DNA from: Naegleria gruberi
Lineage: Eukaryota
Assembly: GCA_000004985.1 (NCBI GenBank)
Contig: GG738857.1
Length of the DNA stretch: 64,000 nt
Direction: 5' to 3' (one strand)
A program made the translations under genes and the position numbers. The notes beneath the pieces are model-generated. The model saw only the letters and a list, made by a program, of their open reading frames with translations, had not been told where the DNA came from and did no database searches. Positions 5,978 through 64,000 of the stretch are shown in pieces (position 1 is the stretch's first letter; each line of letters starts with the position of its first letter).

Positions 5978-6058
5978 GCAGACTTGGCCGAGAGGTTAAG
6001 GCGCGAGACTCGAAATCTCGTGGGGAAACCTTCGTAGGTTCGAATCCTGCAGTCTGCG
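5978..6058 (+). tRNA. tRNA-Ser (anticodon CGA)
   Basis: Cloverleaf: acceptor GCAGACT/AGTCTGC, D-arm GCC-GAGAGGTTAA-GGC, anticodon stem CGAGA/TCTCG with loop CTCGAAA (anticodon CGA), long class-II variable arm, T-arm AGG-TTCGAAT-CCT, discriminator G. Confidence 0.9.
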
Positions 6059-8876: not shown

Positions 8877-8991
8877 AATAACCAAAGTTTAAACACCTTC
8901 TGACCTAGATGTTGGTTAATTAAGAGATTTTAGGTTCCGATTTATTAAGATATTAAGACATTAGCATATTTTTATGAGGAATGAATAAGAT

Positions 8992-9063
8992 TCCCGTGTA
9001 GTCCAATGGCTAGGATACCTGGCTTTCACCCAGGAGGTCCGGGTTCAATTCCCGGCATGGGAG
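8992..9063 (+). tRNA. tRNA-Glu (anticodon TTC)
   Basis: TCCCGTG-TA-GTCC-AATGGCTA-GGAT-A-CCTGG-CTTTCAC-CCAGG-AGGTC-CGGGT-TCAATTC-CCGGC-ATGGGA-G. Anticodon loop CTTTCAC. Typical eukaryotic tRNA-Glu 5' end TCCCNTNTGGTCTA-like. Confidence 0.9.
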
Positions 9064-9707
9064 AATCATTTTGTTTATTATTCAAAAAACTAGTCTTAAT
9101 TCGTGATAGTTCCTGTTTGAGATTTTCGACCACAAGCTTAGGTCAGAAATTATTTCCTTCCAAACAATCCGATGGGATATCCTGTTGTTTTTCTTATCTA
9201 CCATTGACGCACTTGTCCCTTCTTCAATGAAACTGAATATTTTTAAAATTCTTACTTCATTCCAATAGAAATAGTTCTCATCTTCAACGCTTAGTGTTTT
9301 TAATTAAAAAATGAACAGTTCTAACTAATTTACTAGACTTGGGCTAGTTCCATTGTTTTCGTTTGTAAAAGCAAATGTCGAGATGTGGCCACATTTGACT
9401 CCTCAAAGAAATTCTTCGCTCAACAACAAATTCCATTTAACTTTTTTCGAATCGTAAAATAAATTAACAAAATAATCATGAAGTTAACAAGTATCTAAAA
9501 TAGTTTCTGACTACCATTCTAAACAAATAACTTTTCACAAGAATCATTTTCACATCATCAAGTACCCAATTACCCAACCAAAAAAAAATCATTCAATACC
9601 CTACCTCATCCTAGTCTGGTCAATTGATACGTATTGACGTTAATTTTCACAACAACACTCATCAACGCCTGTTTTCCATCAAAACTAATCAAAACTAATT
9701 CAAACTA

Positions 9708-49413: not shown

Positions 49414-50790
49414 TTAGTAACTTTCTATTACACACGCTTTTAAAGATGAAATAATTATTTCAAATTGTTGTGAACAATTAATATTATGATTTCTTTCTTT
49501 GCAAAATTCAATTAATGGAATAAAATTAGCAAGAAAATGAGTTGTAAAAAGAGATCTCTCACCAATTTCAGTTTTAAATTCATTCTCCAAATTGCTAGAA
49601 TCACAGCAATCGTCACAAATATCAAATGAATCATAACCATCCACTGTTGATTGATAAAATCCTGAACATGTTTGATCACATATTTTACATGTCTTTGTTG
49701 ATTCAATTTTAAAAATATCAAAATTATTTCCATACTTTTGTTTCATGTTTGGAATCAAGTTACTTATTTCTGATGGTAAATGATTTAATAATTCAAAATA
49801 TTGTAAAAATTCAACAATACTTCTTCCTACACATGTCAATTTGTGATCATTTAGGTATGATTTGATTAACCATTTTAGTGATTCTTCCATATTTGGCAAT
49901 GTACCAACACCAACACAATACATGTAAGCTACTCCATATTGTGCAAAGCAATAGTTTTGTTTGGCTGATTTTAACAACCATTCAAGTCCAAGTTTTAAAT
50001 CTTTTTCATAATATTCACCAGAATAGTAATAAATACCAATCCAATATTGAGCTAAACAATTTCCATTTCCAGCAGATTTGAAATACCAATCTGTTGCTTT
50101 TTTGAACTCTTCATTAAGTCTATAATGTCTAGCGAGTTTATGTTGATATTTACTATTTCCTAATTCAGCTCCTTTTAAAAGCCATTTTTCTTTCATTTCT
50201 GATGAATTTTTGTTTAATTTTTTCATTTTCTTTATGGCAGGAAAATAATTTAATTCTGCTGATTTTTCCAAAAATGTAATATCCTTATTATATAAATAAA
50301 TTAAATAGTTAAAAATTGGATTATTGGTTTGTTTGGCACATTTTTTATAAACCTTGTTCAATTTAATTCTACTTTTAATATTTGGTAAATCAATTTCAAA
50401 TTTTTTTAATTGTTTAATAATTGAATTTGGAGAAATAATTAATTTTTCCAATACTTTTAAACTAAAATCACCACTTAAATATAATTTTTCCAATTTTGTA
50501 AATAATTTACAATTAAAAATAGTTTTTAACATTTCAGTATTTACATTATTAAAACTACATTTACAAATTTGTAATACTATTTGACTATTACAAAATTTTT
50601 CCATATCCGAAAGTGAAACAAAACGTGTAGAAACCATTTTCAATTTTAAATAGTAATAAATAGACATATCAGACCAATATTTACAAACAAGTCTATGAAC
50701 CAACCATTCATTTGGTAGATAACTTGAAATGTGTGCTAAAATCTCAGGTGGAATTTCATCATTGAAATTTCGTTTTGATAAATTAGACAT
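49414..50790 (-). CDS. F-box / Sel1-like repeat protein
   Basis: N-terminal F-box (IPPEILAHISSYLPNEWLVHRLVCKYWSD). Central Sel1/TPR-like repeats (AELGNSKYQHKLARHYRLNEEFKKATDWYFKSAGNGNCLAQYWIGIYYYSGEYYEKDLKLGLEWLLKSAKQNYCFAQYGVAYMY). Cys-rich C-terminus. Confidence 0.65.
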   Translation of the reverse strand: MSNLSKRNFNDEIPPEILAHISSYLPNEWLVHRLVCKYWSDMSIYYYLKLKMVSTRFVSLSDMEKFCNSQIVLQICKCSFNNVNTEMLKTIFNCKLFTKLEKLYLSGDFSLKVLEKLIISPNSIIKQLKKFEIDLPNIKSRIKLNKVYKKCAKQTNNPIFNYLIYLYNKDITFLEKSAELNYFPAIKKMKKLNKNSSEMKEKWLLKGAELGNSKYQHKLARHYRLNEEFKKATDWYFKSAGNGNCLAQYWIGIYYYSGEYYEKDLKLGLEWLLKSAKQNYCFAQYGVAYMYCVGVGTLPNMEESLKWLIKSYLNDHKLTCVGRSIVEFLQYFELLNHLPSEISNLIPNMKQKYGNNFDIFKIESTKTCKICDQTCSGFYQSTVDGYDSFDICDDCCDSSNLENEFKTEIGERSLFTTHFLANFIPLIEFCKERNHNINCSQQFEIIISSLKACVIESY

Positions 50791-51206
50791 TTTTTTTAAA
50801 GTTGATCAAAACTCCACAATTTCTAATTCTATTAATAAAAGTGCAAAATCACCATCACGTTTATCACGTTTTGTCAAGTTAGAAAGTTCCAACTCAATTT
50901 TATTTAAATAAAATTTCATTGTTTTTGAATATTACTTAATCATTGAGAGTTGATGAAACCAGGCTTCAATACATGTCTTAATGAGCCTTCCGAGTTCTCG
51001 CATTGGATTAAAAAAATTGTTTAATATTCTTTACAATCCATTCAACAATGAAGGCTTGATTGAAAGGCTTTCATGAATTAGAACTCATGAACTTGATATT
51101 AATATCATTAGAAAAAATATCTTTTCATCATCAACTACCACTCTCTTGTAGAAATATTCATCATCCGATCACATCAAAGTAGTACTGATAGAAACAATTT
51201 GCTATT

Positions 51207-52668
51207 TTGTTCATGGGTAATAAATCTTTTAAACAAGCGAACAACAAATCAATTTCATCAACAAGTTTATCATCACAACCCAATTCCAATTTTAATAACA
51301 ATAACAACAACAATAATAACATGTATCAAAGAAATACTCATCATCTTAGAACTGGTGGGAAGAGTGTAGTTTTTGGTTGCGGATATAATTCAGCATCATT
51401 ACTCGGAGTATCACACTCTGATGTTGAAGATAATGGAGTTCATGGATCAAATTCCTTTTCTCAAGATGTAACACAATTTGTTTTCTTATCAACATTACAA
51501 GAATTATTGAATAATGATTCTCCTGGACAACATGTTTGTCAAATTGTTGTTCAATTTTCCAAAACCTACTTTTTAACATCTCATGGTCATGTCTATACTT
51601 CATTTCCATTAGCAAGAGATGTTCAATTTGATAGTATTTTACCTGATCGTGTTGTGGAAATGAGATCAGGACAGAATAGAACATTATTTAGAACTGAATT
51701 TGGTCAAATTTATGTAAAAGCAGATGGTCCACTCTCTAAAATTACTGGAGTTACTAATACACAAGTAAATAATGTAAAATTATTTGGAGTTGGTGGTTTA
51801 CATTACTGGTTATTAGATGATGAAACTAATCGTTTATATGGTGAAGGAGAAATTAATGGAGCTAGTGTTGAAAAAGTTATAGAATTGAATGATTATTTAC
51901 AGAAAGATGAAAAAGTTAGAGATATTGTTACAGGTGGTAATTCGTATGTTTTTTTTATTTCATTTTATAGTAACAATTATATATAACATTGTTTAAATAA
52001 TGATGAATTGAAATTTGAAATTTGATAATAGATTTGTTTTAATAACAAATAAGAATAATATTTATGTATATGGAGAGAAGGAAGCTTTTGGATCAACAGT
52101 TGATGAACATTATTCTAAACCAACAAGATTAAGACAATTTGATGGAATGGTAAAATCAGTTGTTTGTGGATGGTATTTTACAATTATTTTAACATTTAAT
52201 GGACAATTATGGATGGCAGGTAGAAATACATATCAACAACTTTCATCTAAAAATCTATCATCTCATGATAATGTTGTTCAATGGTTTATAGATGATTCAT
52301 TAGTATTAAATCCAAATGAAGAAATTGATCAAATTGGATCTGGATCAGATCACGTTTTAATATCAACAACAATTGGAAGAATTTTCACAAGAGGAATGAA
52401 TACATATGGTCAACTTGGTAGAGATAATAGAACTCAATCTGGAGTATTTATGGAACCAAGTTTTAAAAATCAAAATTACAAGGAAATTATTTCTAAATTT
52501 GTTGGACCAAAATTTTCAATTTCATTTGCAGATAATAATTTTAATACTTTAAGTTCCTTTTTAATTATTCATTCAGTTAGAGAATCAAAGGAACTTATTC
52601 AAATGAGATCAAAACTTTTAAATTGTTCAAAACAATCTTTATTATCAGATTTAGTAATTTTACATTAA
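51207..52668 (+). CDS. RCC1-repeat (regulator of chromosome condensation-like) protein, 2 exons
   Basis: Exon 1 51207-51943 (donor gtatgt), exon 2 52024-52668 (acceptor gataatag). Repeated GxNxxGQLG-type blades (GRNTYQQLSS, GMNTYGQLGRDNR, YGEGEINGAS). Confidence 0.6.
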
Positions 52669-53247
52669 AACATTTTAATTTATTATTTAATATATTATTT
52701 TGATGATTGTAAAGTTAAAATGATGATCATGTGAGGATTAGTTATTATTGATTCAAGTCATTAGAGATAGATGAATAATAATTGATGAAATTTGAATGAA
52801 AATTTATTGTTTTTAGAATGTACTGTCAACATAATTTTTCCATAAAAGTAACAATTGTGAATCTTCGTAATGTTAAATATCAAAAATCAAAAACTGATTG
52901 ACGTTGTGTAAAACCAAACGTCATCAAAAATCGACTCGTCATTAAAAAAAATATCTGAACAGCTCTTAACAATAACAATCATCATCACCTGTTTCTGATA
53001 ATAAAATTATTATTATTTGATTATTATCGGTTTCTAATAACAATAGAGGTTAAGTGGCAGTAGAGTAATATAGAAGTTTTTTATAGAAGGAGTAGAAACA
53101 AATCATCATCATCATCATCTCTCTCCAGTTACTCACTCCATAACTATATTGTTATCATCATCAATATCATCAATTTATTATTATTATTAATAATATTAAA
53201 TAGTGTACATATTACAATAATAATAATAATAATATTAAAAAATTAGA

Positions 53248-54992
53248 ATGTCAGGTTTTTCATCACAATCTATTCAAGCATCACTTGTTAGACCATCCAA
53301 ATATAGACATTTAAATGGATTTGAAACTAAAAGTGAGAGATATGAAAATATTAATGTTGGTTATGGTCAAAAATTAAGTAATACATTAAAAACCAATGGT
53401 TCAATCTATGCATTACCATTTAATGTAACAGGTGGTACTTTATCATTTAAATATTTAAATGATTATGGTAGATGGGATGAAAAATTACAAAATTATGGAA
53501 TTATTAAGGCTCACAAGGGAAGATTATCAGATTTTGATATTTCCCCTTTTAGAAATAGAGATCATTTAGTAACTGTTTCTAATTCTGATAATATTATTAG
53601 ATATTGGAAATTACCTACAAATAATAATGATAATGATAATAATAGCAATGATATTTCTTCTTCTAATATTACTTCTACTAATACTTCCAATATAAATGGT
53701 AATAATACTATATATAGAACCTATGAAGAAATGGATTGTGATTTGGAATTAAATGATACAAATAATACAAAATCAACTATTAGTAGAATATCATTTAATC
53801 CACTTGTTGATAATTCACTTGTTAGTATTCAAGGAGATTTAATCCATTTTTGGGATGTTGAAAAAAAGAAAATTTTAAATTCAATTCAAAATTTACCAAA
53901 TCCATCAATTTCTAGTAAAACATTACCAACAGTTGAAAGTTTAGGATGGAATGAATATGGTAATTTATTTATATGTGGTACAAATGATCGTTCCATTAGA
54001 ATTTATGATATTAGATTATCTTCCAATTATAGTAATAATAATAATAATAATAATAATCAATCTAATAATCAACAAATATGTATAACTGAAGGACATTCAA
54101 GTATGAAACCATTTCAAACATTATATTGTGAAAATATGTATATATGTAGTGTTGGATTTTCTAAAAATGGAGGTAGAGAATTAGCCATGTATGATATTAG
54201 AAAAGATTTGAAATGTTTACAAAGAATTTCCATTGATAATGGTGGTTCAGTTTTAACACCATTTTATGATTCAGATATTAAATTACTATATTTAGTAGGT
54301 AGAGGAGATGGTAATATTAGATTTTATGAATTAGAAGGTGGTATTATGCATTATTTAAATGATTATAATTGTCAATCTACATCTGCATCTGTTGATTGGT
54401 TACCAAAATGGAAATTAAATGTTAATAATTTTGAATTGGCTAAATTTTTAAGATTAACAAATGAAAAAACAATTGAAACTCTTTCAATGAGAGTTTCTAG
54501 AAAATCAAATATTGAACAATATTTTCAAGAAGATATATTTCCAGATACTTGGAATGGTCAACCTATTTATAATAATACTAATCAATGGTTAAATACTATT
54601 ATTAATAATAATACTACTTCTATTAATAATAATACTATACAAAGTAATATTAATAATAGTAATGGTAATGGTAATGAAAATTTGAATGAAAATGAATTAT
54701 TACAAACTAGACCAACCATGTCATTAAAACCATCTGATAAAATATCTATCTATGATGTACCTATTAGTGAAGGTGGTAAAATTAGACCATCCACTACTAA
54801 TTTAAGTAAATTACATTCATCATCATCTTTAAATAGTATTGAAAATACTCCAACTACTACATTAGATACCCCAACTACTATTACAAATTATAATACAAAT
54901 GAACAAGTTGATGATGAATTTAAAGATTTAAATGAAAATCAACAATTTGATGACAATGAAGAAGAAGAAGAAGAATTAATTACCATTAATAC

Positions 54993-55023
<31 letters not shown>

Positions 55024-58000
55024 GAACATAATCATAATAATTTTAATGATTTAAATGATATAGATTCATTAATGTCACCAACAGAAGCAACTTCCAAATC
55101 CATTTCCATTGGATTAGTTTCTAGTTTAGGTAAAAATGTAGCACTTGCATCAGCTCATATTCCATGGTATAAAAGAATTACAATGGGAATGGGTTATTAT
55201 TTAGGAATGGCAATGTTTTTAATATTTAAATTTACATTCATTTCAATACCTGTTTGGGTTTATCGTAAATCTACTGGTTACACTCCTCCACCTATTAAGG
55301 AACGTTTCGAACAAGTACCTGTTATTAAGGTTATTAAGAAACCTTCAAGAAAAGTTTCATCAAATATCAATTCTTCTACAAGTGTTAAACGTAATATTGT
55401 TGGTGGTGGTGCTAATACTAATAATAATAATACTGATAATAATAATATAACACCTACTACACCAAATGATTATATTAAATCATCAGTATCTAATACATCA
55501 TTATCATTAACTCCACAAACTCCAAGTGGTAGCGGCAATAATTTAATCATTTCAGATCCACTTGCAAGTGAATCAAGTCGATTACTATCACGTGAATATG
55601 GTAGAATTATTATGGAAGAATATATTGGTAAATTAACTAAAGAAGATATATTTCCTAAAAGAGCACATGATAAAGATACCAATCTAAAACAAGTTCTTGA
55701 AATTGATGTAGTTGACTTGAAAAAAGGTCTCACTCATGTACTAATTTGGGTAAAAGGACGTAAAAAATCGAGAGCAACACTTGCACCACTTTATTGGACA
55801 AGTTTAAATCATAATGATTGTTTCATTTTGGATTGTGGTAAAATTTGTTACATTTACAATGGACAATATTCTAACAAATTATGTAGAGCTAAAGCATTAG
55901 ATATTTCACAAATGATTAAATATAAGGAAAGAGGTGGTGATTGTCAAGTTGTAATTATTGATGGTATTGATTATTCTAATAATGGAAATAATTCTAATAA
56001 TAATTCTAATAACAATGACATGACACCATTATATAAAAAACAAGTATTACAATTTTGGAAAGAATTAGGATTAACAAGTGAAAATGAATTTTGTGAATTA
56101 TTAAATATTCACTTTCCTAAAAAGGAAGATTCTAGTAGTAGTAGTAATAATAATGTATTAAACAGATTAAAATTAACAGATAAATCTAAATTTACATCAA
56201 AAGATGAATTAAATGATGATTTATATCAACAATTTAATGATTTAGGTCAAAGATTATATAAATTAAATTCAGAAATCTTTGAAGAACTTCCACTAAAAAT
56301 AGAATTAAATGAAACACAAGATGAATACATAGAAAGAATATCACCATATATGTTAAGTGTTATAAAATTAAATCAAATACCAGGTGGTGAAATTGTAAAT
56401 TTAAAAGAATTAGAAAATTTATTAAATAATGAAAAGAATTTAATTGATCCAAATAAGGTATCAGAAATTACACAACCATCACATCATGTTTTACATTCTG
56501 ATCAATGTTACATTTTTGAAAGTTTATTTACAAATGAAGTTTTCTTTTGGAGTGGAAAACAAAGTAATTTAAATATTAGAAAATGGGGAATTGCTATTGC
56601 TAAAAAATTAGCACAATATAGATCTTTAAATAATAATCCATTTTCATTGAAAAATCCAATTTTACAACGTTTTAAATCTATTTTAAATAATTCTATTAAT
56701 ATTACTATAAATGGAAGTAATTCTATAAATGGAAATCAATTACCTAATAATAGAAAATATTTATCATCCATTACACGTGTTATAGAAGAAGGTGAACATT
56801 CTATTTATAAACAAAAATTTAGTGATTATCCAGGAATGTTAATGATTCAAACACAATCACAAGAATCACGTGGAAATGTTGCAGAAAAAAAGAAACAATC
56901 AAAAATTAATTTTTTAGAATTATTAAAATCTAAAAATAATTTAAAAGAAGAATTAAAATCTAATTCACAAAAACAATTTATTGATCCAACTTTAGTAACT
57001 ACCATATATAGTAGTAAAATTAGAATGTGGAGAGTGAGTGATTTTCAAAAAATACCATATCAACATTTAGGTCATTTCTTTACAGGTGATGCATTTATTA
57101 TTTTATTTACCTATACAAAAATAGAAGGTGGTAAATCTTTCCATAAATTATTCTTTTGGCAAGGAAGAGATATTAAAAAGAAAGATAAAGGAACATCTGC
57201 ATATAAAACTGTTGAAATTAATGAAATGATTGATGAAGGTGTTGTAGAAAATCAAATTAGAGTTGTACAAGATAAGGAACCTAAACTATTTTTAGATTTA
57301 TTTAAATTTAACCCAAATAGTATGGAAGAGAGTACTACTATTGAAAATGATAAACATTATAAGAAGGTACCTTATTTTATTCATAAGGGTAAATATAGAC
57401 CTTCTGTTTTGGAATCTTTTGAAAAGGCTAACAAATTATCTTCTATTATTGGTAATATTTCTAATAATAATAATAATGGAAATATTAATCCAAAATCATC
57501 ACCATTACCAAAATTAAATATTTCTAATAATACAAATGATAATAATAATACAAATAATACCACTACAACTACACCAACAACACCTACAATTTCAAATGAT
57601 GAAGAAATGAATCTTGCACCTGTTAAATTATTTACTTCCATAAATGGAAATTTAGATGAAAATGAAAAATTTTCACCTCAAATTTTACAATTCCAAACAG
57701 AAATGATTGAAAGAATAATTTCTAAAAATATAAAATTAGAATATTTAAAATCCTATGATTTTAGAAATGGAATTTTATGTGAAACTGATGATTTACATCC
57801 AAATTATTTAAATCCATTTAATTTAATAATTTTTTCAAATTTAAATTTTAATGTTTATTTAAATAGAATTGAACTAAATAAGGAAATTGAACAAGATGAT
57901 TTAAAAACTATTATTTATTATGGAAAATATTGTAAAGAATCTGATAAGAAATTTATTGAAAATAATGTTTTAAATTTATTTAATAATAATAATATAATTA

Positions 58001-58908
58001 CTATAAATGGAAATAATCAAGAATTATTAGAAAATGTATTTACTAAGGAAATTGATCCAACATTTGAATATTTTATTTCTAGATTTAATAATTATTTAAA
58101 TACTTTTGAATTTAAAAATAATTATAATATTTCCTTTTATAATATTAATGATCATTCAGGTGAATTTACTTTAAATAGATTGGATCCATTTGGTGAAATT
58201 GATTTATCTTCTTCACAAGCCTTTATTTTAGATTGTCTTGATTTAGAAGGTAAAATCTATGTTTGGATTGGAATGTTATGTAATATTGAAACAAAGAAAT
58301 TTGCACTTTCAACTACCATTCAATATTACTATACATGGAAATCACAAACTTGTAATGATGAATTTTATAAGAAGAAACCTCAAAATGATGACATGGATGA
58401 TTTTGATCCAAGTAAATTTTTACAAAAATCAGATGAACAATCATTACTTGTCATTCAAGAAATGGAAGAACCACAAGAATTTACAAAACATTTCATTTCA
58501 TGGTCAATTAATTCAACTTCATTCAAAGTTAGATTTAAACAATTACAAGATCCAAATTTAATTTCAAAGGGTTTTGTTAAAACACCAAGAACTCCAAGAA
58601 GATCAAATATTAATGTTCAAATTTCTAAACATGAAAAGAATTTATTTGAACATTCTTCATCCATTTTTGAAATTGAACATTGTTCAAATGTTTTACAATT
58701 ATATAACAAATTATTTACTCACAAAACTTATAGTTATGCAATTTTAACAAGTGGTGCAAATATTCCAGAAGGTATTGATAAATCTAAATTAGAATCTTAT
58801 TTATCAAATGAAGAATTCCAAAAAGTATTTGGAATGGATAAAAAGAAATTTGCTACTTTACAAAATTGGAAACAAACCTCTTTGAAAAAGGAAAAGAATT
58901 TATTTTAA
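53248..58908 (+). CDS. Villidin-like giant actin-binding protein: coronin-type WD40 N-terminus, gelsolin repeats, C-terminal villin headpiece
   Basis: Single 1886-aa exon. N-terminus SKYRHLNGFETKSERYENINV...DFDISPFRNRDHLVTVSNSDNIIRYWKLP (coronin signature). Gelsolin-like repeats in the C-terminal half. Terminal LSNEEFQKVFGMDKKKFATLQNWKQTSLKKEKNLF (villin headpiece). Contains poly-N, His10 and a ~30-aa hydrophobic segment (GMGYYLGMAMFLIFKFTFISIPVWVY). Confidence 0.8.
54034..54057. repeat. (AAT)n microsatellite within coding sequence (poly-Asn)
   Basis: aataataataataataataataat in frame within the villidin-like gene. Similar AAT/CAA/CAT runs recur throughout the coding regions. Confidence 0.8.
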
Positions 58909-58975
58909 ATCACTCGCATATATTATTATTAAATTTGTATATTTTTTAAAATGATCATATTCTTTCAAAAGAAGA

Positions 58976-61670
58976 TTAATAATTTGTACATCCATTTTCC
59001 TTCATGTACTTTTCTGCATCAAGTCTAGAAGTAAATGATTTAAATTTTGCTCCTTGAAATTGATCAACTTGAATTTTACATTCGTCCCACGTATTAAATA
59101 TACCTGTTCTTCTACCAATACAAACACAATATAATTTACCACTCTTTGACATTCCACTACTTCCACTTCCACTTCCACTACTACCATAACTTTTAGATGT
59201 ATTACTGTTACTGTTGGATGTTATTGCTCTTCCAGGATTAAGTTTTGATTTTTTCATAATTTGTGAATGATAAGATGTTCCACTCTGAGTAGAATTTGAA
59301 TCATTTTTACGTTTCTTTGTATTTCCACCACCACTTGTAAAATCTGATAAATCTAAATTTTGTAAAGTTTCTTCAAATATTTTTCTTCTCTTTTCAAAAG
59401 ATTCTTCATTCTTTTTTAATAAATTTTCAATAAATAAATCTTTTGAACTTGTATCTTGTGCTGAATATTGTTCTTGTTTTTTAAGTTTGTTATAAAAATC
59501 AATTGCTTCTCTATTTATATGTCTAGTTAAATTATATGAATTAAAATTTGTAACTTTTAAATATTTCATTGTTTTTGCACGTGATAATGCAACATAGATT
59601 TGACCTGGACTAAACACTGTTGATAAATCAATTACACATTTTTGTAATGTTAATCCTTGTGTTTTATGTACTGTCATGGCTATTATTATTAAATTTAAAA
59701 ATATAAAATATTAAATATTAAATATTAATATAAATTAAATATTAATATAAAAATATTAAATTATTAAATATTAAATTAAAAAACATACCATAAGCTAATT
59801 TTAAAGGAATTTGAATTCTAACACCTTTAGATTTTTTTGGACCATCTGTTTCAAAAATGGTAGGATGTACAATTTTAATAATTTTAATTTCCTTTCCATT
59901 TTCTTCTCTTGTAAAAACCACTTTTGGAAATAATTCACCATTTTCATTAATATATTGTTCAGCATATTGTTTAATATTCTTATTTGAACTTTGTAAATCA
60001 CTTGGTGTTTGTTTAATAAAACCAATAATTTCACCTCTTGTTCCATTCACTAATTGATTTGTAAAATCATTTTTAATTATCATTACTTGTGCTCCAATAC
60101 GTAAATTAATTTCCTGTGATGCATTAGATGAATTAAAATTTGTTAATATAGCACTTTTAATATATTCTTTAATAGTTGGATGATCTACTTTTGGATCATA
60201 ATCTCCATATGAAAAAAATGTTTGATCTCTATAAGTATATTGTGGTGGTGATAATTTTAATAATTCTGTATCATTCACTGTATCTACATTCTTATTTAAT
60301 GTATGAATAACTGTTGCCTTTTCAATTCCATCAAATTTATTATTTTCTAATCTTTTTAATGTTTGTACTATATTATTATTAGTTTGACAACATCTAATAG
60401 AATTTAATATTGATATCCATTCTTTTTCTTCCTGTCTAAATACATTACTCAATTCAAATGTATATTTAATTGTACGTTCCCAACATGTAGCTTTAAAACA
60501 CATTTCCTTTTTTTGATAAATAGTTTCACCATGTTCATTTTTAAATGATTTACTAACAGGTGGTAACTATAAATATATTTGATAGATTTTGAATAGATAT
60601 TGTAGTAGAATTATTATTATTAGATTAGATTAATGTGAATATGAATATTATATTTTGAGATTAAATTGAATGGTATTAGATTTGATTGGTGTGAATATGA
60701 TTGAAAATCATTAAAAAAAACAAACCTGTAAGAAATCACCACATAAAATAACTTGAATTCCACCAAATGCAGGTAATTGTTTCATAATAACTTCTTTAGG
60801 TGCTCTAGATGCAGCAATTTCAAAGAAACATCTAATTTCAGTTGCAATTGATTCTAATTGATCAAAATATTGACCATCAATCATTGAAATTTCATCAACA
60901 ATTAAAACATCAACACTTCTCCATTCTTTTTCATTTCTCCAAGCTGTTTTACTATCAACTTTACCATTATCCAATGTTCTAATACCTGCAAATGAGCTAA
61001 TTAATTTTTAAATAAAGTATTACAATATAATTACAATGTTAAATATAAGTATACTATAATAATTAGAAATATTTACATACTGTATAGTTGATCCACCAAT
61101 ATTAACAGCAGAAATACCAGTTGAAGCAGTCACCACAACTTTCTTTTGTTGAACATTTGATAAAGTTTGAATAATACATTCTAATAAGAAACTTTTACCA
61201 GTTCCAGCAACACCTGTAATAAAAACTGAATGTCCTTCCATTACACATTTCAAAACATTCATTTGTTCATCACTTAATTTTGATAACAAGCCTTGATAGG
61301 TATCACATTGATTTAAATCAAAACTAGCTAATTCGGGAAATATTGTTGAAGGTAATTCTTGTTGTTTACTTTTCAATTTCATATCATTTGCAAATGATGT
61401 AATTGATCCGAGTGTTTTTGGAGGTGCTTTAGTTGTTGTTGCTGTTGATGTTGTTGTACTATTACTAACACCAGTACTAAAGGAAGGCTTTTTAGATGCT
61501 GAAGCTTTCTTAATTTTAGGTGGTGCACCTCCTCCGGAAGAAGGCATTGATCTTGGTTTTGGCTTTGCATTTGCAGGTACAAATACTACTCCATTCTTTT
61601 CTAACATTATGATGATGAATTTGTGTTCAAAGCCTTTGTTGAATGTTTGAAGGCTTTTTTTTTGATTCAA
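58976..61670 (-). CDS. Pif1-family 5'-3' DNA helicase with C-terminal RNase-H-type hybrid-binding (Cauli_VI/HBD) domain, 4 exons
   Basis: Exons (minus) ~61081-61670, 60726-60996, 59789-60566, 58976-59679. Introns have gtatgt/gtttgt donors and ...ttag acceptors, phase-checked. Helicase motifs: I FITGVAGTGKSFLL; Ia TASTGISAVNIGGSTI(H)SFAGI (split by intron); II DVLIVDEISM; III ILCGDFLQ|LPPV (split by intron); IV/V GAQVMIIKN...LVNGTRGEI; C-terminal PLKLAY|AMTVHKTQGLTL...YVALSRAK. Last ~50 aa KLYCVCIGRRTGIFNTWDECKIQVDQFQGAKFKSFTSRLDAEKYMKE match the RNase H1 N-terminal hybrid-binding domain consensus. N-terminal Met uncertain. Confidence 0.75.
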
Positions 61671-62226
61671 AGTGTTTTTAACGTTCTATTAAAAATTAGA
61701 ACATTTTGGCGGGTTGAACGATTCTTGAACTAAGACACTTCTCAATAGAATTTATTAACAGGTAACAATGTCGAAATAACTTTATGATTAAGGGCATCCT
61801 GCTAACTCCCACTGATTTAAAAAGTCAGACGAAATTCACTAAAGTGGTAGTAGCATTGAATAATAATAAATAATTTAATTTTAAAATTGTAAAACGAAAT
61901 GATTATTATTCAATAATATCTTCACTGTTGGAGCACAATTTCCAATAATAATGCGATCATCAATGTCATTGTCATTTCCTTTCACATCATAATCACAAAA
62001 AAATCACTGATTCAAATCTATTCAATTAGCCTTTGTATTTGACTCTACTATTGTTGTTTCTCTGATTTTAACGTTTGATTCTCTCCAACTCACCTCTATT
62101 GGAGCCTTCATAACTTATAATACTCAACAGCGCTCTCTTTCACGAAATATCACAACACCTCATCAATAATAATTCATTGAAAAAAAACAATTCTATTGTA
62201 TCATATATATATTGTAGAGCAAAGAG

Positions 62227-63675
62227 ATGAATAACCGATTACTTGATGATGATCATGACGATGATAATGATTCACTCCTTACACCTGGATTAAATCAACA
62301 ACAACAACAACAACAAGCCTTCAGTAAGTCAACAAATCCAAACTCAACTAGTAGTTTACACGACCGATATGATGATGATGATGATATTTCTGGTGATGAA
62401 TATTTACCTCATAATTCACTATTATTGAATAATCAAAAAGACTCCAATACAACACAAGCCTCTAAAACAAATAAGAAATGGTGGAATTTAAAAAAGGATC
62501 GTAAATCACACGTCGTTTGTTGGATGATGATTTTAGGATCTGGATTATTATTGACTTCTATTGGTATCGTTTCAATGGTTTTATTAGTCATTTACTCTCC
62601 AACTCCAAAGGAAATGTATGTTTTCATATCGTTTTGATATATTTAAATAATAATATTATTTTTTACTTCAATATTTTTTATTCAATTAAATGAATGAAAA
62701 AATTTTGTAATAATTTTAATAATAATTTTAATAATAATTTAAAAATAGTTTGAATGGTACAAGTCCAATTAGTGAAAAACAATGGAAAGAAATAGTATTA
62801 GAAACATTTGGAGTAGTGAGTGGATTTGTTATTGGTATTGGAATAGTTTTATCAGTTACACNNNNNNNNNNNNNNNNNNNNNNNNNNNNNNNNNNNNNNN
62901 NNNNNNNNNNNNNNNNNNNNNNNNNNNNNNNNNNNNNNNNNNNNNNNNNNNNNNNNNNNNNNNNNNNNNNNNNNNNNNNNNNNNNNNNNNNNNNNNNNNN
63001 NNNNNNNNNNNNNNNNNNNNNNGCACAATTGTCATCTCAATTGAATCACAACAAGAAACAGCAAGTCAAGCTCAAAGAGAAGTTGGTACTAAATCAACTT
63101 CAGTGATTGCTGTATTGAAGAATATTAATTTTGTAACAAAATTAAGAACTGCCTCTATTACATTATATCCAATTTATCCATCAACATTGAATCCATCTGT
63201 TACAATACCATATAATGAAAGTATGAGAATTGTTGGATATAAATCATCTAATACTATTTCATTCACAGTTACAAGTTTAACAATTATTGGTGAAGTATTG
63301 GATAAATTAATTGAATTGGGTGTAACACAAATATCAAGTATTAATATGCAAGCAAATGAAACAGCTGTTAATAATGCACGTGAACAAGCTCTTTCATTGG
63401 CTGTACAAGATGCTAAATCTAAAATTGAAAAAGTTGTTGCAACATTGAATCCTGATTTAACCATTGAAACTATTAGAAGTAGAATGTATACCTATGATGT
63501 TAATATTGATAGTGTTAATAGACCAATTCCAATCGCATTCCCTTATTTTGCTCAAGGTGCTTCATATAGAATGGATGCTGCTCAATCACAATCTGTTCCA
63601 GTAGTAGGTGGTGATCAGACTATTGATTCATATGTTACTGTAAAGATGGTTTTTAGACAACAACAACAACAATAG
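62227..63675 (+). CDS. SIMPL/DUF541-domain protein with N-terminal TM segment, 2 exons, interrupted by assembly gap
   Basis: Exon 1 62227-62615 (acidic/poly-Q N-terminus, TM helix MMILGSGLLLTSIGIVSMVLLVIY, donor gtatgt), exon 2 from 62749. The 160-N gap at 62863-63022 lies inside it. C-terminal region ...SQAQREVGTKSTSVIAVLKNINF...NNAREQALSLAVQDAKSKIEKVV...SQSVPVVGGDQTIDSYVTVKMVF resembles the DUF541/SIMPL fold. Confidence 0.55.
62863..63022. other. Assembly gap (160 N)
   Basis: Run of N inside the predicted CDS. Confidence 1.
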
Positions 63676-64000
63676 AATATTTGAATTATGATTCCTTATT
63701 GATTTTTTTGAGATTAATTTGAAAGACCTTTTTGTATTTTTTAATAATAAATTGCGAAACTTTTTTGTCAAGTTTTTGGAAGAAATTTCTGACAAGCCTC
63801 TTGTGAAGATAACTTGAAAGGCTTTGTTCTTCGAGCAAAAAATAGAATATCACCACTCAAAAAAATACCTAAGTGATCCACCTAGTGATTCACCCCAACA
63901 ACTGTAAATAACAATCATTCCGAATCAAAGCCTTTGTACAATATGTCCCGTAAAACAACCTCTCAAGAAGAAAAGCTCGACATTGTTGTTGACTTTTTCC

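What the first reader, a model, noticed from the sequence alone, without database searches (positions are those of the whole stretch)
58976..61670. Pif1 helicase carrying a C-terminal RNase-H-type hybrid-binding domain (HBD)
All Pif1 signature motifs are present across four exons. The extreme C-terminus (KLYCVCIGRRTGIFNTWDECKIQVDQFQGAKFKSFTSRLDAEKYMKE) fits the RNase H1 N-terminal / caulimovirus-VI hybrid-binding fold, preceded by a Ser/Gly/Asn-rich linker. A Pif1 helicase tethered to an RNA:DNA-hybrid-binding module suggests direct targeting to R-loops or Okazaki/primer hybrids. There is no Rep endonuclease domain, so it is not an obvious Helitron.
Basis: partly seen in the sequence, partly recalled or inferred. 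Interest (0 to 1): 0.55.

Follow-up and report, generated by a model that had tools for sequence, protein, structure and literature searches.

The report
Pif1 helicase with RNA:DNA-hybrid-binding tail
This is a real, single-copy Naegleria gruberi gene for a Pif1 DNA helicase that carries an RNase H1-type RNA:DNA-hybrid-binding domain on a flexible C-terminal tether; the same combination occurs in related amoebae and, with the domain at the other end, in mushrooms and slime moulds, so it is a believable but untested 'R-loop-seeking helicase' rather than a new kind of system.

Summary
On the minus strand, four exons (61607-61081, 60996-60726, 60566-59789, 59679-58976; GT..AG introns of 84, 159 and 109 nt) encode a 759-aa protein. 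It has an intact Pif1 helicase core (Pfam PIF1 E=1e-36; best solved relatives are the Candida, yeast and human Pif1 structures). It also has a complete RNase H1 N-terminal/Cauli_VI hybrid-binding domain (HBD) at aa 707-750 (E=7e-16). The predicted fold of that domain matches human HBD bound to RNA/DNA (TM 0.92, rmsd 0.6 Å).

Helicase motifs V/VI, the linker and the HBD lie in one uninterrupted exon, so the fusion does not depend on splice prediction.

The window is Naegleria gruberi NEG-M. N. lovaniensis has the same gene, tail-to-tail with the same coronin-villin neighbour. There is no Rep domain and no second copy in the window, so it is not a Helitron.

The architecture is not unique. Willaertia, Acrasis and some metagenomic protists have a C-terminal HBD. 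Physarum and many basidiomycetes have an N-terminal HBD. A 2016 in-silico survey of amoebal Pif1s already noted "RNase H1-like RNA binding" accessory domains.

Targeting of the helicase to RNA:DNA hybrids is a reasonable inference but untested. Verdict: a new member of a known kind, of modest interest.

The parts
58976..61607 (-). Whole Pif1-HBD gene, from ATG to stop: 4 exons, 759 aa
   Evidence: Gene model. It is 66% identical along its full length to N. lovaniensis P0001 and 54% to Willaertia P0002. tblastn finds a single copy in the window.
61081..61607 (-). Exon 1: low-complexity S/K/T/P-rich N-terminal region (aa 1-105), then helicase motifs I (Walker A, GVAGTGKS, 61191-61214) and Ia (TASTGISA, 61107-61130)
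   Evidence: These motifs are invariant in alignment A1. The intron after GGSTI^H is at the same position in N. lovaniensis.
60726..60996 (-). Exon 2: Walker B (LIVDEISM, 60882-60905), the Pif1 signature region (DQLESIATEIR...PAFGGIQ, 60753-60863) with a 16-aa clade-specific insert, and the first half of motif III (GDFLQ)
   Evidence: The insert shows as a gap in the alignments to Candida and yeast Pif1 and is shared with P0001, P0002 and P0003.
59789..60566 (-). Exon 3: the rest of motif III (LPPV), motif IV (VFRQ), and the 2B/SH3-like domain (IGAQVMIIKN...LVNGTRGEI)
   Evidence: Pfam Pif1_2B_dom 29.3 bits. Motif positions. An in-frame TAG immediately upstream of LPPV fixes the acceptor site.
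58976..59679 (-). Exon 4: one uninterrupted ORF holding helicase motifs V (AMTVHKTQGLT) and VI (GQIYVALSRAK), the linker and the HBD
   Evidence: ORF 58976..59677. The translation is continuous. N. lovaniensis has an equivalent last exon, and a metagenomic ORF, P0258, starts at the same Met.
59348..59443 (-). Predicted long alpha-helix (aa ~604-636) just after the helicase core, conserved in Naegleria and Willaertia; no known domain
   Evidence: AlphaFold helix at residues 78-107 of the exon-4 product, pLDDT about 70-77. Alignment. No Pfam hit.
59144..59338 (-). Disordered Ser/Gly/Lys/Asn-rich linker (aa 640-704), including a KKRK motif (59300-59323) that may be a nuclear localisation signal
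   Evidence: pLDDT below 50 over residues 114-178 of the exon-4 product. Composition: S 19, G 10, K 8, N 7 out of 65. KKRK/KRK is conserved in P0001 and P0002. The NLS role is inferred only.
58997..59137 (-). RNase H1-type hybrid-binding domain (HBD), aa 707-753
   Evidence: Pfam Cauli_VI E=7e-16, full profile. 3bsu and 1qhk at about E=2e-10. pLDDT about 94 with beta-beta-alpha-beta-alpha order. Foldseek against 3bsu: TM 0.92, rmsd 0.6 Å. The equivalents of Y29, W43, F58 and K59 are conserved.

Best explanation
This is a chromosomal, vertically inherited Naegleria gruberi gene. It encodes a catalytically intact Pif1-family (SF1B, 5'->3') DNA helicase. Its C-terminus carries an RNase H1-type hybrid-binding domain (HBD) at the end of a tail of about 110 residues: one helix, then about 65 disordered Ser/Gly-rich residues.

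Proposed mechanism:
- The HBD binds the minor groove of an RNA:DNA duplex, as it does in RNase H1. Candidate substrates are an R-loop, an Okazaki or mitochondrial primer, or a telomerase-RNA/telomere hybrid.
- This raises the local concentration of the helicase motor at the hybrid. The flexible tether lets the motor engage adjacent single-stranded DNA.
- The motor translocates 5'->3' on the DNA strand and peels off the RNA. That destroys the HBD's own binding site and releases the enzyme.
- The layout copies the logic of RNase H1 (HBD, flexible connection, catalytic domain), with a helicase in place of the nuclease.

What is shown: the gene structure, the identity and integrity of both domains, the disorder prediction for the linker, orthology and synteny, and recurrence of the fusion in other lineages. 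What is inferred: hybrid binding by this particular HBD, recruitment, the substrate in vivo, and the cell compartment.
For: - Gene model with canonical introns.
- PIF1, Pif1_2B and Cauli_VI all score above Pfam gathering thresholds.
- SF1 motifs I-VI are intact and invariant across orthologues.
- The best solved relatives are cellular Pif1 helicases.
- The HBD model is confident and superposes on 3bsu.
- The equivalents of the hybrid-contact residues Y29, W43, F58 and K59 are conserved.
- The linker is predicted to be disordered.
- Helicase motifs V/VI and the HBD share one exon and one ORF.
- The N. lovaniensis orthologue has the same domains and the same coronin-villin neighbour in the same orientation.
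- The C-terminal HBD is also present in Willaertia, Acrasis and three metagenomic protist proteins, which cluster in a neighbour-joining tree (Acrasis falls beside that cluster, not inside it). N-terminal HBD-Pif1 proteins occur in Physarum, many basidiomycetes and others. The pairing has therefore arisen or been rearranged at least twice, which argues for functional coupling.
- Among 130 of the best HBD matches scanned, PIF1 was the most frequent catalytic partner apart from the RNase H-type domains RNase_H and RVT_3.
- Published background: Pif1 helicases unwind RNA:DNA hybrids and suppress R-loops, as reviewed in PMC8998199 and PMC10641170.
Against: - There is no biochemical, transcript or localisation evidence for this protein.
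- The equivalent of K60, one of the three residues mutated in the standard binding-dead human HBD (from my own knowledge), is Ser here. That column is variable across the family, so this is weak evidence against.
- HBDs also bind dsRNA, more weakly, and the same fold serves other roles in caulimovirus P6.
- PMC8998199 notes that ScPif1 unwinds only 15-20 bp of hybrid at a time, and that RNase H1 rather than Pif1 resolves long co-directional R-loops in a reconstituted system. A strong R-loop resolvase role therefore cannot be assumed.
Confidence: 0.65

Rival explanations
1. The helicase belongs to a Helitron or another mobile element (a RepHel-type transposase fragment or a captured gene), not to the host's genome-maintenance machinery.
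For: Helitron helicases are Pif1-like, and Helraiser gives a weak match (7lcc, E=6e-11). In the basidiomycete Pleurotus, a separate gene carrying a Cauli_VI domain was found captured inside a Helitron (PMC4289320).
Against: - There is no Helitron_like_N/Rep domain in the protein.
- No ORF of 40 aa or more lies in the ~620 bp between the start codon and the next gene, and only 67 bp separate the two stop codons at the 3' end.
- The locus is single-copy, with no repeated flanks in 64 kb.
- Cellular Pif1 structures match about 50 orders of magnitude better than Helraiser.
- Synteny with N. lovaniensis is colinear, and two intron positions are shared.
Confidence: 0.02
2. The fusion is an artefact: two adjacent genes (a Pif1 and a small HBD protein) wrongly joined, or a decaying pseudogene.
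For: The spliced 759-aa model is not in the public protein collection, and no N. gruberi protein appeared among the top 120 homologues. The public set therefore holds no model that independently confirms the fusion in this species.
Against: - Helicase motifs V and VI, the linker and the HBD are read in one 233-codon ORF with no stop or frameshift.
- The same contiguous arrangement is annotated in N. lovaniensis, Willaertia magna and Acrasis kona and appears in an independent metagenomic ORF, P0258.
- All catalytic motifs are intact.
Confidence: 0.02
3. The C-terminal domain has the HBD fold but does not target RNA:DNA hybrids. It would instead bind dsRNA or another nucleic-acid form, or act as a protein-interaction or regulatory module, for example auto-inhibiting or dimerising the helicase.
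For: - The K60 equivalent is Ser.
- The Cauli_VI fold occurs in many contexts, including long tandem arrays and fusions to unrelated domains such as Snf7, MoaE and G-patch.
- Accessory domains of other Pif1 helicases modulate the motor rather than target it. An example is the WYL domain of TePif1 (bioRxiv 10.1101/163188).
Against: - Four of the five residues known to contact the hybrid in human HBD are conserved, and the fold is nearly superimposable on the hybrid-bound structure.
- The dominant partner of this domain family is RNase H itself (62 of 130).
- The domain sits on a long disordered tether, the arrangement expected for an independent targeting module.
- Attachment at either end of Pif1 in different lineages argues against a specific intramolecular docking role.
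Confidence: 0.2
4. The protein does target hybrids, but it works in the mitochondrion, on RNA primers or R-loops of mtDNA replication, rather than on nuclear R-loops, Okazaki fragments or telomeres.
For: Pif1 helicases of yeasts and humans have mitochondrial isoforms (PMC8998199), and RNase H1 is described as mainly mitochondrial (PMC10641170).
Against: The N-terminus (MLEKNGVVFVPANAKPKPRS...) is not an obvious amphipathic presequence. Conserved KKRK-type basic clusters lie in the linker and N-terminal region. Neither point was tested with a predictor, so this remains open.
Confidence: 0.15

Closest known systems
Cellular Pif1-family helicases (S. cerevisiae Pif1/Rrm3, Candida albicans Pif1, human PIF1)
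   Same: Same SF1B core with motifs I-VI, the Pif1 signature region and the 2B/SH3 domain. Matches of E=4e-68 to 1e-58 to their solved structures. Like them, it has low-complexity N- and C-terminal extensions.
   Different: Those proteins have no recognisable nucleic-acid-binding accessory domain at the C-terminus. This one carries an HBD. It also has a 16-aa insert inside the signature region, shared only with its closest relatives.
RNase H1 hybrid-binding domain (human 3BSU, yeast 1QHK; Pfam PF01693 Cauli_VI)
   Same: 42-50% identity and the same beta-beta-alpha-beta-alpha fold (TM 0.92). The Tyr, Trp, Phe and first Lys contact residues are conserved. The domain is joined to a catalytic domain by a flexible linker.
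   Different: It is C-terminal rather than N-terminal. It is attached to a helicase rather than to the RNase H nuclease; there is no PF00075 hit. The second Lys (K60) is Ser.
Pif1 helicases with accessory domains in amoebae (Harman & Manna 2016, Mol Phylogenet Evol 103:64; known to me only through citing papers)
   Same: Andis et al. summarise that survey as finding amoebal PIF1 helicases with 'RNase H1-like RNA binding' motifs among other accessory domains (reference identified). That is the same kind of architecture.
   Different: I could not read the paper. I therefore do not know whether it lists this N. gruberi gene or the C-terminal arrangement. No experimental follow-up turned up in the searchable literature.
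N-terminal HBD-Pif1 proteins of Physarum and Agaricomycetes (e.g. P0009, P0012, P0018, P0024)
   Same: The same two domains in one polypeptide, with a Pif1-type (not Helitron-type) core.
   Different: The domain order is reversed: the HBD is at residues ~5-50. In a neighbour-joining tree the helicase cores fall in clades separate from the heterolobosean group. Basidiomycetes also keep a second Pif1 clade in which no HBD was detected (P0012 and P0047 both come from Volvariella).
TePif1-WYL (Thermotoga elfii Pif1 with a C-terminal WYL ssDNA-binding domain)
   Same: A Pif1 motor with a C-terminal accessory nucleic-acid-binding module. This is experimental precedent that such modules change substrate affinity and coupling.
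   Different: A different fold and ligand (WYL binds ssDNA), in a bacterium.
Helitron RepHel transposases (e.g. Helraiser, 7LCC)
   Same: A Pif1-like helicase domain.
   Different: There is no Rep/HUH domain. The similarity is far weaker (6e-11 against 4e-68). The gene is single-copy, syntenic and contains introns.

Membership tests
Pif1 family (SF1B helicases) | Match to the PIF1 family profile above the curated threshold | tested here: met
   PF05970: 127.1 bits against a cutoff of 25.9, E=1e-36.
Pif1 family (SF1B helicases) | Intact SF1 motifs I (Walker A), Ia, II (Walker B), III, IV, V and VI | tested here: met
   GVAGTGKS, TASTGISA, VDEISM, GDFLQLPPV, VFRQ, TVHKTQG and YVALSRAK were located. 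They align to Candida and yeast Pif1 and are invariant in the orthologue alignment.
Pif1 family (SF1B helicases) | Pif1 family signature sequence between motifs II and III | tested here: met
   Both halves are present (DQLESIATEIR ... PAFGGIQ), but a 16-residue insert splits them relative to Candida and yeast Pif1. The insert is shared with P0001-P0003.
Pif1 family (SF1B helicases) | 2B (SH3-like) domain | tested here: met
   PF21530 Pif1_2B_dom: 29.3 bits against a cutoff of 23.9.
Pif1 family (SF1B helicases) | ATP-dependent 5'->3' DNA unwinding | not testable with these tools
   Needs recombinant protein.
RNase H1-type hybrid-binding domain (PF01693) | Full-length match to the family profile above threshold | tested here: met
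   58.6 bits against a cutoff of 21, profile positions 1-44 of 44, aa 707-750. 63.7 bits when the tail is scanned alone.
RNase H1-type hybrid-binding domain (PF01693) | Three-stranded sheet plus two helices, superposable on solved HBDs | tested here: met
   AlphaFold pLDDT about 94, element order E-E-H-E-H. Foldseek against 3bsu: TM 0.90-0.93, rmsd 0.6-1.2 Å. Against 1qhk: TM 0.68.
RNase H1-type hybrid-binding domain (PF01693) | Residues that contact the hybrid in human HBD (Y29, W43, F58, K59, K60; residue roles recalled from the 3BSU work, not checked in a paper here) | tested here: inconclusive
   Y, W, F and the first K are conserved; the K60 equivalent is Ser. That column is variable across the family (consensus 'YKxF').
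RNase H1-type hybrid-binding domain (PF01693) | Preferential binding of RNA:DNA over dsRNA and dsDNA | not testable with these tools
   Needs binding assays.
RNase H1 (the enzyme) | RNase H catalytic domain (PF00075) | tested here: not met
   No RNase_H hit in the 759-aa protein at E<=0.1. It is not an RNase H.
Helitron RepHel transposase | Rep/HUH endonuclease domain (Helitron_like_N) N-terminal to the helicase | tested here: not met
   No such hit. The N-terminal 105 aa are low-complexity. There is no upstream ORF.
Helitron RepHel transposase | Mobile, multi-copy element with defined termini | tested here: not met
   Single copy with no repeated flanks in the 64-kb window. The position next to the coronin-villin gene is conserved in N. 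lovaniensis. The rest of the genome could not be searched.

The most novel reading that the evidence does not exclude
Pif1 and the hybrid-binding domain have been joined independently at least twice: at the C-terminus in Heterolobosea, and at the N-terminus, sometimes in tandem, in Amoebozoa, Agaricomycetes and other eukaryotes. If so, removal of RNA:DNA hybrids is a directly selected, primary job of a dedicated Pif1 paralogue in these lineages. These proteins would then be natural non-nucleolytic 'R-loop/primer strippers' that work alongside, or in place of, RNase H1. The N. gruberi gene also appears to be missing from the public protein set, so it would be an unannotated example in a model amoeba.
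Probability: 0.45. Interest if true: 0.5.

Novelty: new member of a known kind. Interest (0 to 1): 0.35.

Why it matters
Which helicases act on R-loops in vivo, and how they find them, is debated. The evidence for Pif1 is mostly genetic, plus in-vitro unwinding of short hybrids. A natural protein in which evolution has attached the canonical hybrid sensor of RNase H1 to a Pif1 motor, repeatedly and at either end, is independent comparative evidence that Pif1 motors are used on RNA:DNA hybrids.

It also offers a compact, testable model. One can compare full-length with delta-HBD protein, or graft the tail onto yeast Pif1. Practically, the result adds a missing gene model to the N. gruberi annotation. 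It also shows that ORF callers tend to recover only the last exon (helicase C-terminus plus HBD) of such genes.

Tried and rejected
- **Helitron reading.** Rejected: no Rep domain, single copy, conserved synteny, and only weak similarity to Helraiser.
- **Exact look-ups of the spliced model.** The cluster look-up did not find it. The neighbouring ORFs did identify the organism as N. gruberi NEG-M. Contig look-ups for two of those neighbours found nothing.
- **Structure prediction of the full spliced protein.** I folded the contiguous exon-4 product with orthologues instead.
- **Exhaustive representative search with the 60-aa HBD.** It worked, but the top of the list is dominated by tandem-HBD proteins. 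It gives context, not a census of Pif1 fusions.
- **Harman & Manna 2016.** This is the one paper that seems to describe such fusions, and it is not held. Only a one-sentence summary in Andis et al. was available.
- **The PF01693 mention in a Pleurotus Helitron paper.** It concerns a separate captured gene, not a Pif1 fusion.
- **Intron conservation.** I first inferred from tblastx that all intron positions are shared with N. lovaniensis. Mapping the annotated protein showed that only the first and last are shared.
- **Deep branches of the neighbour-joining tree.** They are not reliable. I use the tree only for the grouping of the C-terminal-HBD proteins and for the separation of the two basidiomycete clades.
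Full report
**What is there.** The region is AT-rich eukaryotic DNA. On the minus strand, four exons join through three GT..AG introns of 84, 159 and 109 nt: 61607-61081, 60996-60726, 60566-59789 and 59679-58976. Together they form an open 2280-nt CDS of 759 aa. Three observations fix the splice sites:
- The junctions reconstitute canonical Pif1 motifs: GGSTI-H-SFAG, GDFLQ|LPPV and LKLAY-A-MTVHKTQG.
- An in-frame TAG lies directly upstream of LPPV.
- The model aligns end to end with orthologues, at 66% identity to Naegleria lovaniensis and 54% to Willaertia magna, including the N-terminal M..NG..FVPA.

The conserved ATG is at 61607.

**Domain content.** Pfam gives PIF1 (E=1e-36), Pif1_2B_dom (above threshold) and a full-length Cauli_VI / 'Ribonuclease H1 N-terminal domain' at aa 707-750 (E=7e-16; 1.8e-17 when the tail is scanned alone).

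Against solved structures, the core matches Candida albicans Pif1 (7otj, 4e-68), ScPif1 (5o6b, 5e-63) and human PIF1 (about 1e-58). The tail matches the human and yeast RNase H1 hybrid-binding domains (3bsu and 1qhk, about 2e-10 alone).

All SF1 motifs are intact. One peculiarity is a 16-residue insert that splits the Pif1 signature region. It is shared only with the closest relatives.

An AlphaFold model of the exon-4 product, built with six orthologues, shows three features:
- an HBD with pLDDT of about 94 and strand-strand-helix-strand-helix order;
- a linker of about 65 residues, rich in Ser, Gly, Lys and Asn, with pLDDT below 50;
- a moderately confident long helix just after the helicase core.

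Foldseek places the HBD on the human HBD-RNA/DNA complex with TM 0.92 and rmsd 0.6 Å over 47 residues. The equivalents of Tyr29, Trp43, Phe58 and Lys59 are conserved, and Lys60 is Ser. That last column is variable family-wide.

**The fusion is real.** Helicase motifs V and VI, the linker and the HBD are read in one uninterrupted 233-codon ORF (58976-59677). The fusion therefore does not rest on any splice prediction. N. lovaniensis has an equivalent last exon. A metagenomic ORF, P0258, starts at the same Met and ends in an HBD.

**Organism and genomic context.** Exact look-ups of neighbouring ORFs identify the window as Naegleria gruberi NEG-M, on a scaffold of 573,072 bp. The 1886-aa neighbour is XP_002679446.1, named 'coronin'.

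The 759-aa model is not in the protein collection. No N. gruberi protein appeared among the best 120 homologues. The gene therefore seems to lack a public model. This is an inference, since I could not inspect the GenBank record itself.

In N. lovaniensis, the PIF1+Cauli_VI gene lies tail-to-tail with the orthologous coronin-gelsolin-villin-headpiece gene. tblastx is colinear across both genes. The first and last intron positions are shared and the others differ.

**Not a Helitron.**
- There is no Rep/Helitron_like_N hit.
- There is no upstream ORF, and only 67 bp separate the two stop codons at the 3' end.
- The locus and its flanks are unique within the window.
- Helraiser matches about 50 orders of magnitude worse than cellular Pif1s.

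**Distribution of the architecture.** Among the best homologues, HBD position depends on the lineage:

| HBD position | Where found |
|---|---|
| C-terminal | N. lovaniensis, Willaertia magna, Acrasis kona (all Heterolobosea), and three metagenomic proteins |
| N-terminal | Physarum polycephalum, many Agaricomycetes (Volvariella, Phanerochaete, Hypsizygus, Tricholomella, Mycena, Antrodiella), and several unassigned sequences |

One of the metagenomic C-terminal proteins sits on a gene-dense contig of a cellular eukaryote.

The exhaustive HBD search also turned up Pif1 proteins with two tandem N-terminal HBDs, and a UvrD-type helicase with HBDs.

In a neighbour-joining tree of the helicase core, six C-terminal-HBD proteins and the truncated fragment P0003 form one group, with Acrasis next to it. 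The basidiomycete HBD-bearing Pif1s form a clade distinct from a second basidiomycete Pif1 clade in which no HBD was detected. Deep nodes in this tree are unreliable.

The opposite domain order implies at least two independent fusions or a rearrangement.

Of 130 top HBD matches scanned, 62 carry RNase_H, 16 RVT_3, 3 PIF1 and 1-2 UvrD domains. The HBD is therefore mainly an RNase H accessory, and helicases are a minor, recurrent partner.

**Mechanism.** The design parallels RNase H1: a hybrid sensor, a flexible connection and a catalytic domain. The most likely function is that the HBD anchors the protein on an RNA:DNA duplex and the Pif1 motor, moving 5'->3' on the DNA strand, displaces the RNA.

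This fits published biochemistry and genetics. Pif1 is more processive on RNA:DNA than on DNA:DNA, and it is implicated at R-loops, tRNA genes, Okazaki flaps and telomerase (reviewed in PMC8998199 and PMC10641170). The same reviews note its limited processivity on long hybrids.

Binding specificity, the in-vivo substrate and the cell compartment are all inferred. A conserved KKRK cluster in the linker hints at nuclear import but was not tested.

**Prior knowledge.** Full-text searches found no paper describing a natural Pif1-HBD protein in the R-loop or Pif1 literature.

Andis et al. (bioRxiv 10.1101/163188) do state that an in-silico survey of amoebae found PIF1 helicases with 'RNase H1-like RNA binding' accessory motifs. 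That survey is Harman & Manna 2016, which I could not read. Orthologues in public databases already carry both Pfam annotations.

The architecture is therefore known at the annotation level and functionally unexplored. This N. gruberi copy appears to be an unmodelled member.

**Verdict.** The functional reading is plausible and untested. Novelty: a new member of a known kind. Interest is modest (0.35), because the fusion is a neat comparative argument and a tractable experimental handle rather than a surprise.

Noticed in passing
window 53248-58908 (+): A single 1886-aa ORF (XP_002679446.1, named 'coronin') combines an N-terminal coronin-type DUF1899/WD40 propeller, gelsolin repeats and a C-terminal villin headpiece. 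From memory, this resembles Dictyostelium villidin. N. lovaniensis has a 2014-aa orthologue with the same domains next to its Pif1-HBD gene.
   Followed up: partly
window 60753-60863 (-), aa 221-257: The Pif1 signature region is interrupted by a 16-residue insert (CFFEIAASRAPKEVIM) relative to Candida and yeast Pif1. It is shared with N. lovaniensis, Willaertia and metagenomic P0003, and is shorter in P0004 and P0006. Its functional meaning is unknown.
   Followed up: partly
window 58976-61607 versus public protein sets: Neither the 759-aa model nor the exon-4 ORF product is in the 15-billion-protein collection, and no N. gruberi or N. fowleri entry was among the top 120 homologues, although neighbouring N. 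gruberi genes are present. The gene may be unannotated in the reference proteome.
   Followed up: partly
window 62227-63675 (+), gap 62862-63022: The divergently oriented upstream neighbour encodes an acidic, low-complexity N-terminus, a transmembrane-like segment and a SIMPL/DUF541 domain (PF04402, E=5e-28). A 161-N assembly gap interrupts the gene, so its model is incomplete. No tblastx match to the N. lovaniensis locus was seen beyond 61.4 kb.
   Followed up: partly
window 50000-64000: GC content falls from about 0.31-0.35 over most of the window to 0.22-0.27 in the last ~14 kb, which holds the coronin-villin and Pif1-HBD genes.
   Followed up: no
window 5978-6058 (+) and 8991-9064 (+): Two tRNA genes were predicted: tRNA-Ser(CGA) and tRNA-Glu(TTC).
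   Followed up: no
proteins P0259, P0177, P0208: Other helicase-HBD fusions exist. One is a 1138-aa UvrD-type helicase with an N-terminal and an internal HBD. Two are ~955-aa Pif1 proteins, rich in Gly/Ala runs, with two tandem N-terminal HBDs. Many proteins consist of 3-8 tandem HBDs.
   Followed up: partly
L001 10001-13010 versus window 58976-61607: Intron turnover between orthologues. N. lovaniensis has four introns and N. gruberi three. Only the first (GGSTI^H) and last (LKLAY^AMTVHK) positions coincide. The GDFLQ|LPPV intron of N. gruberi is replaced by one 26 codons downstream in the N. lovaniensis annotation.
   Followed up: yes
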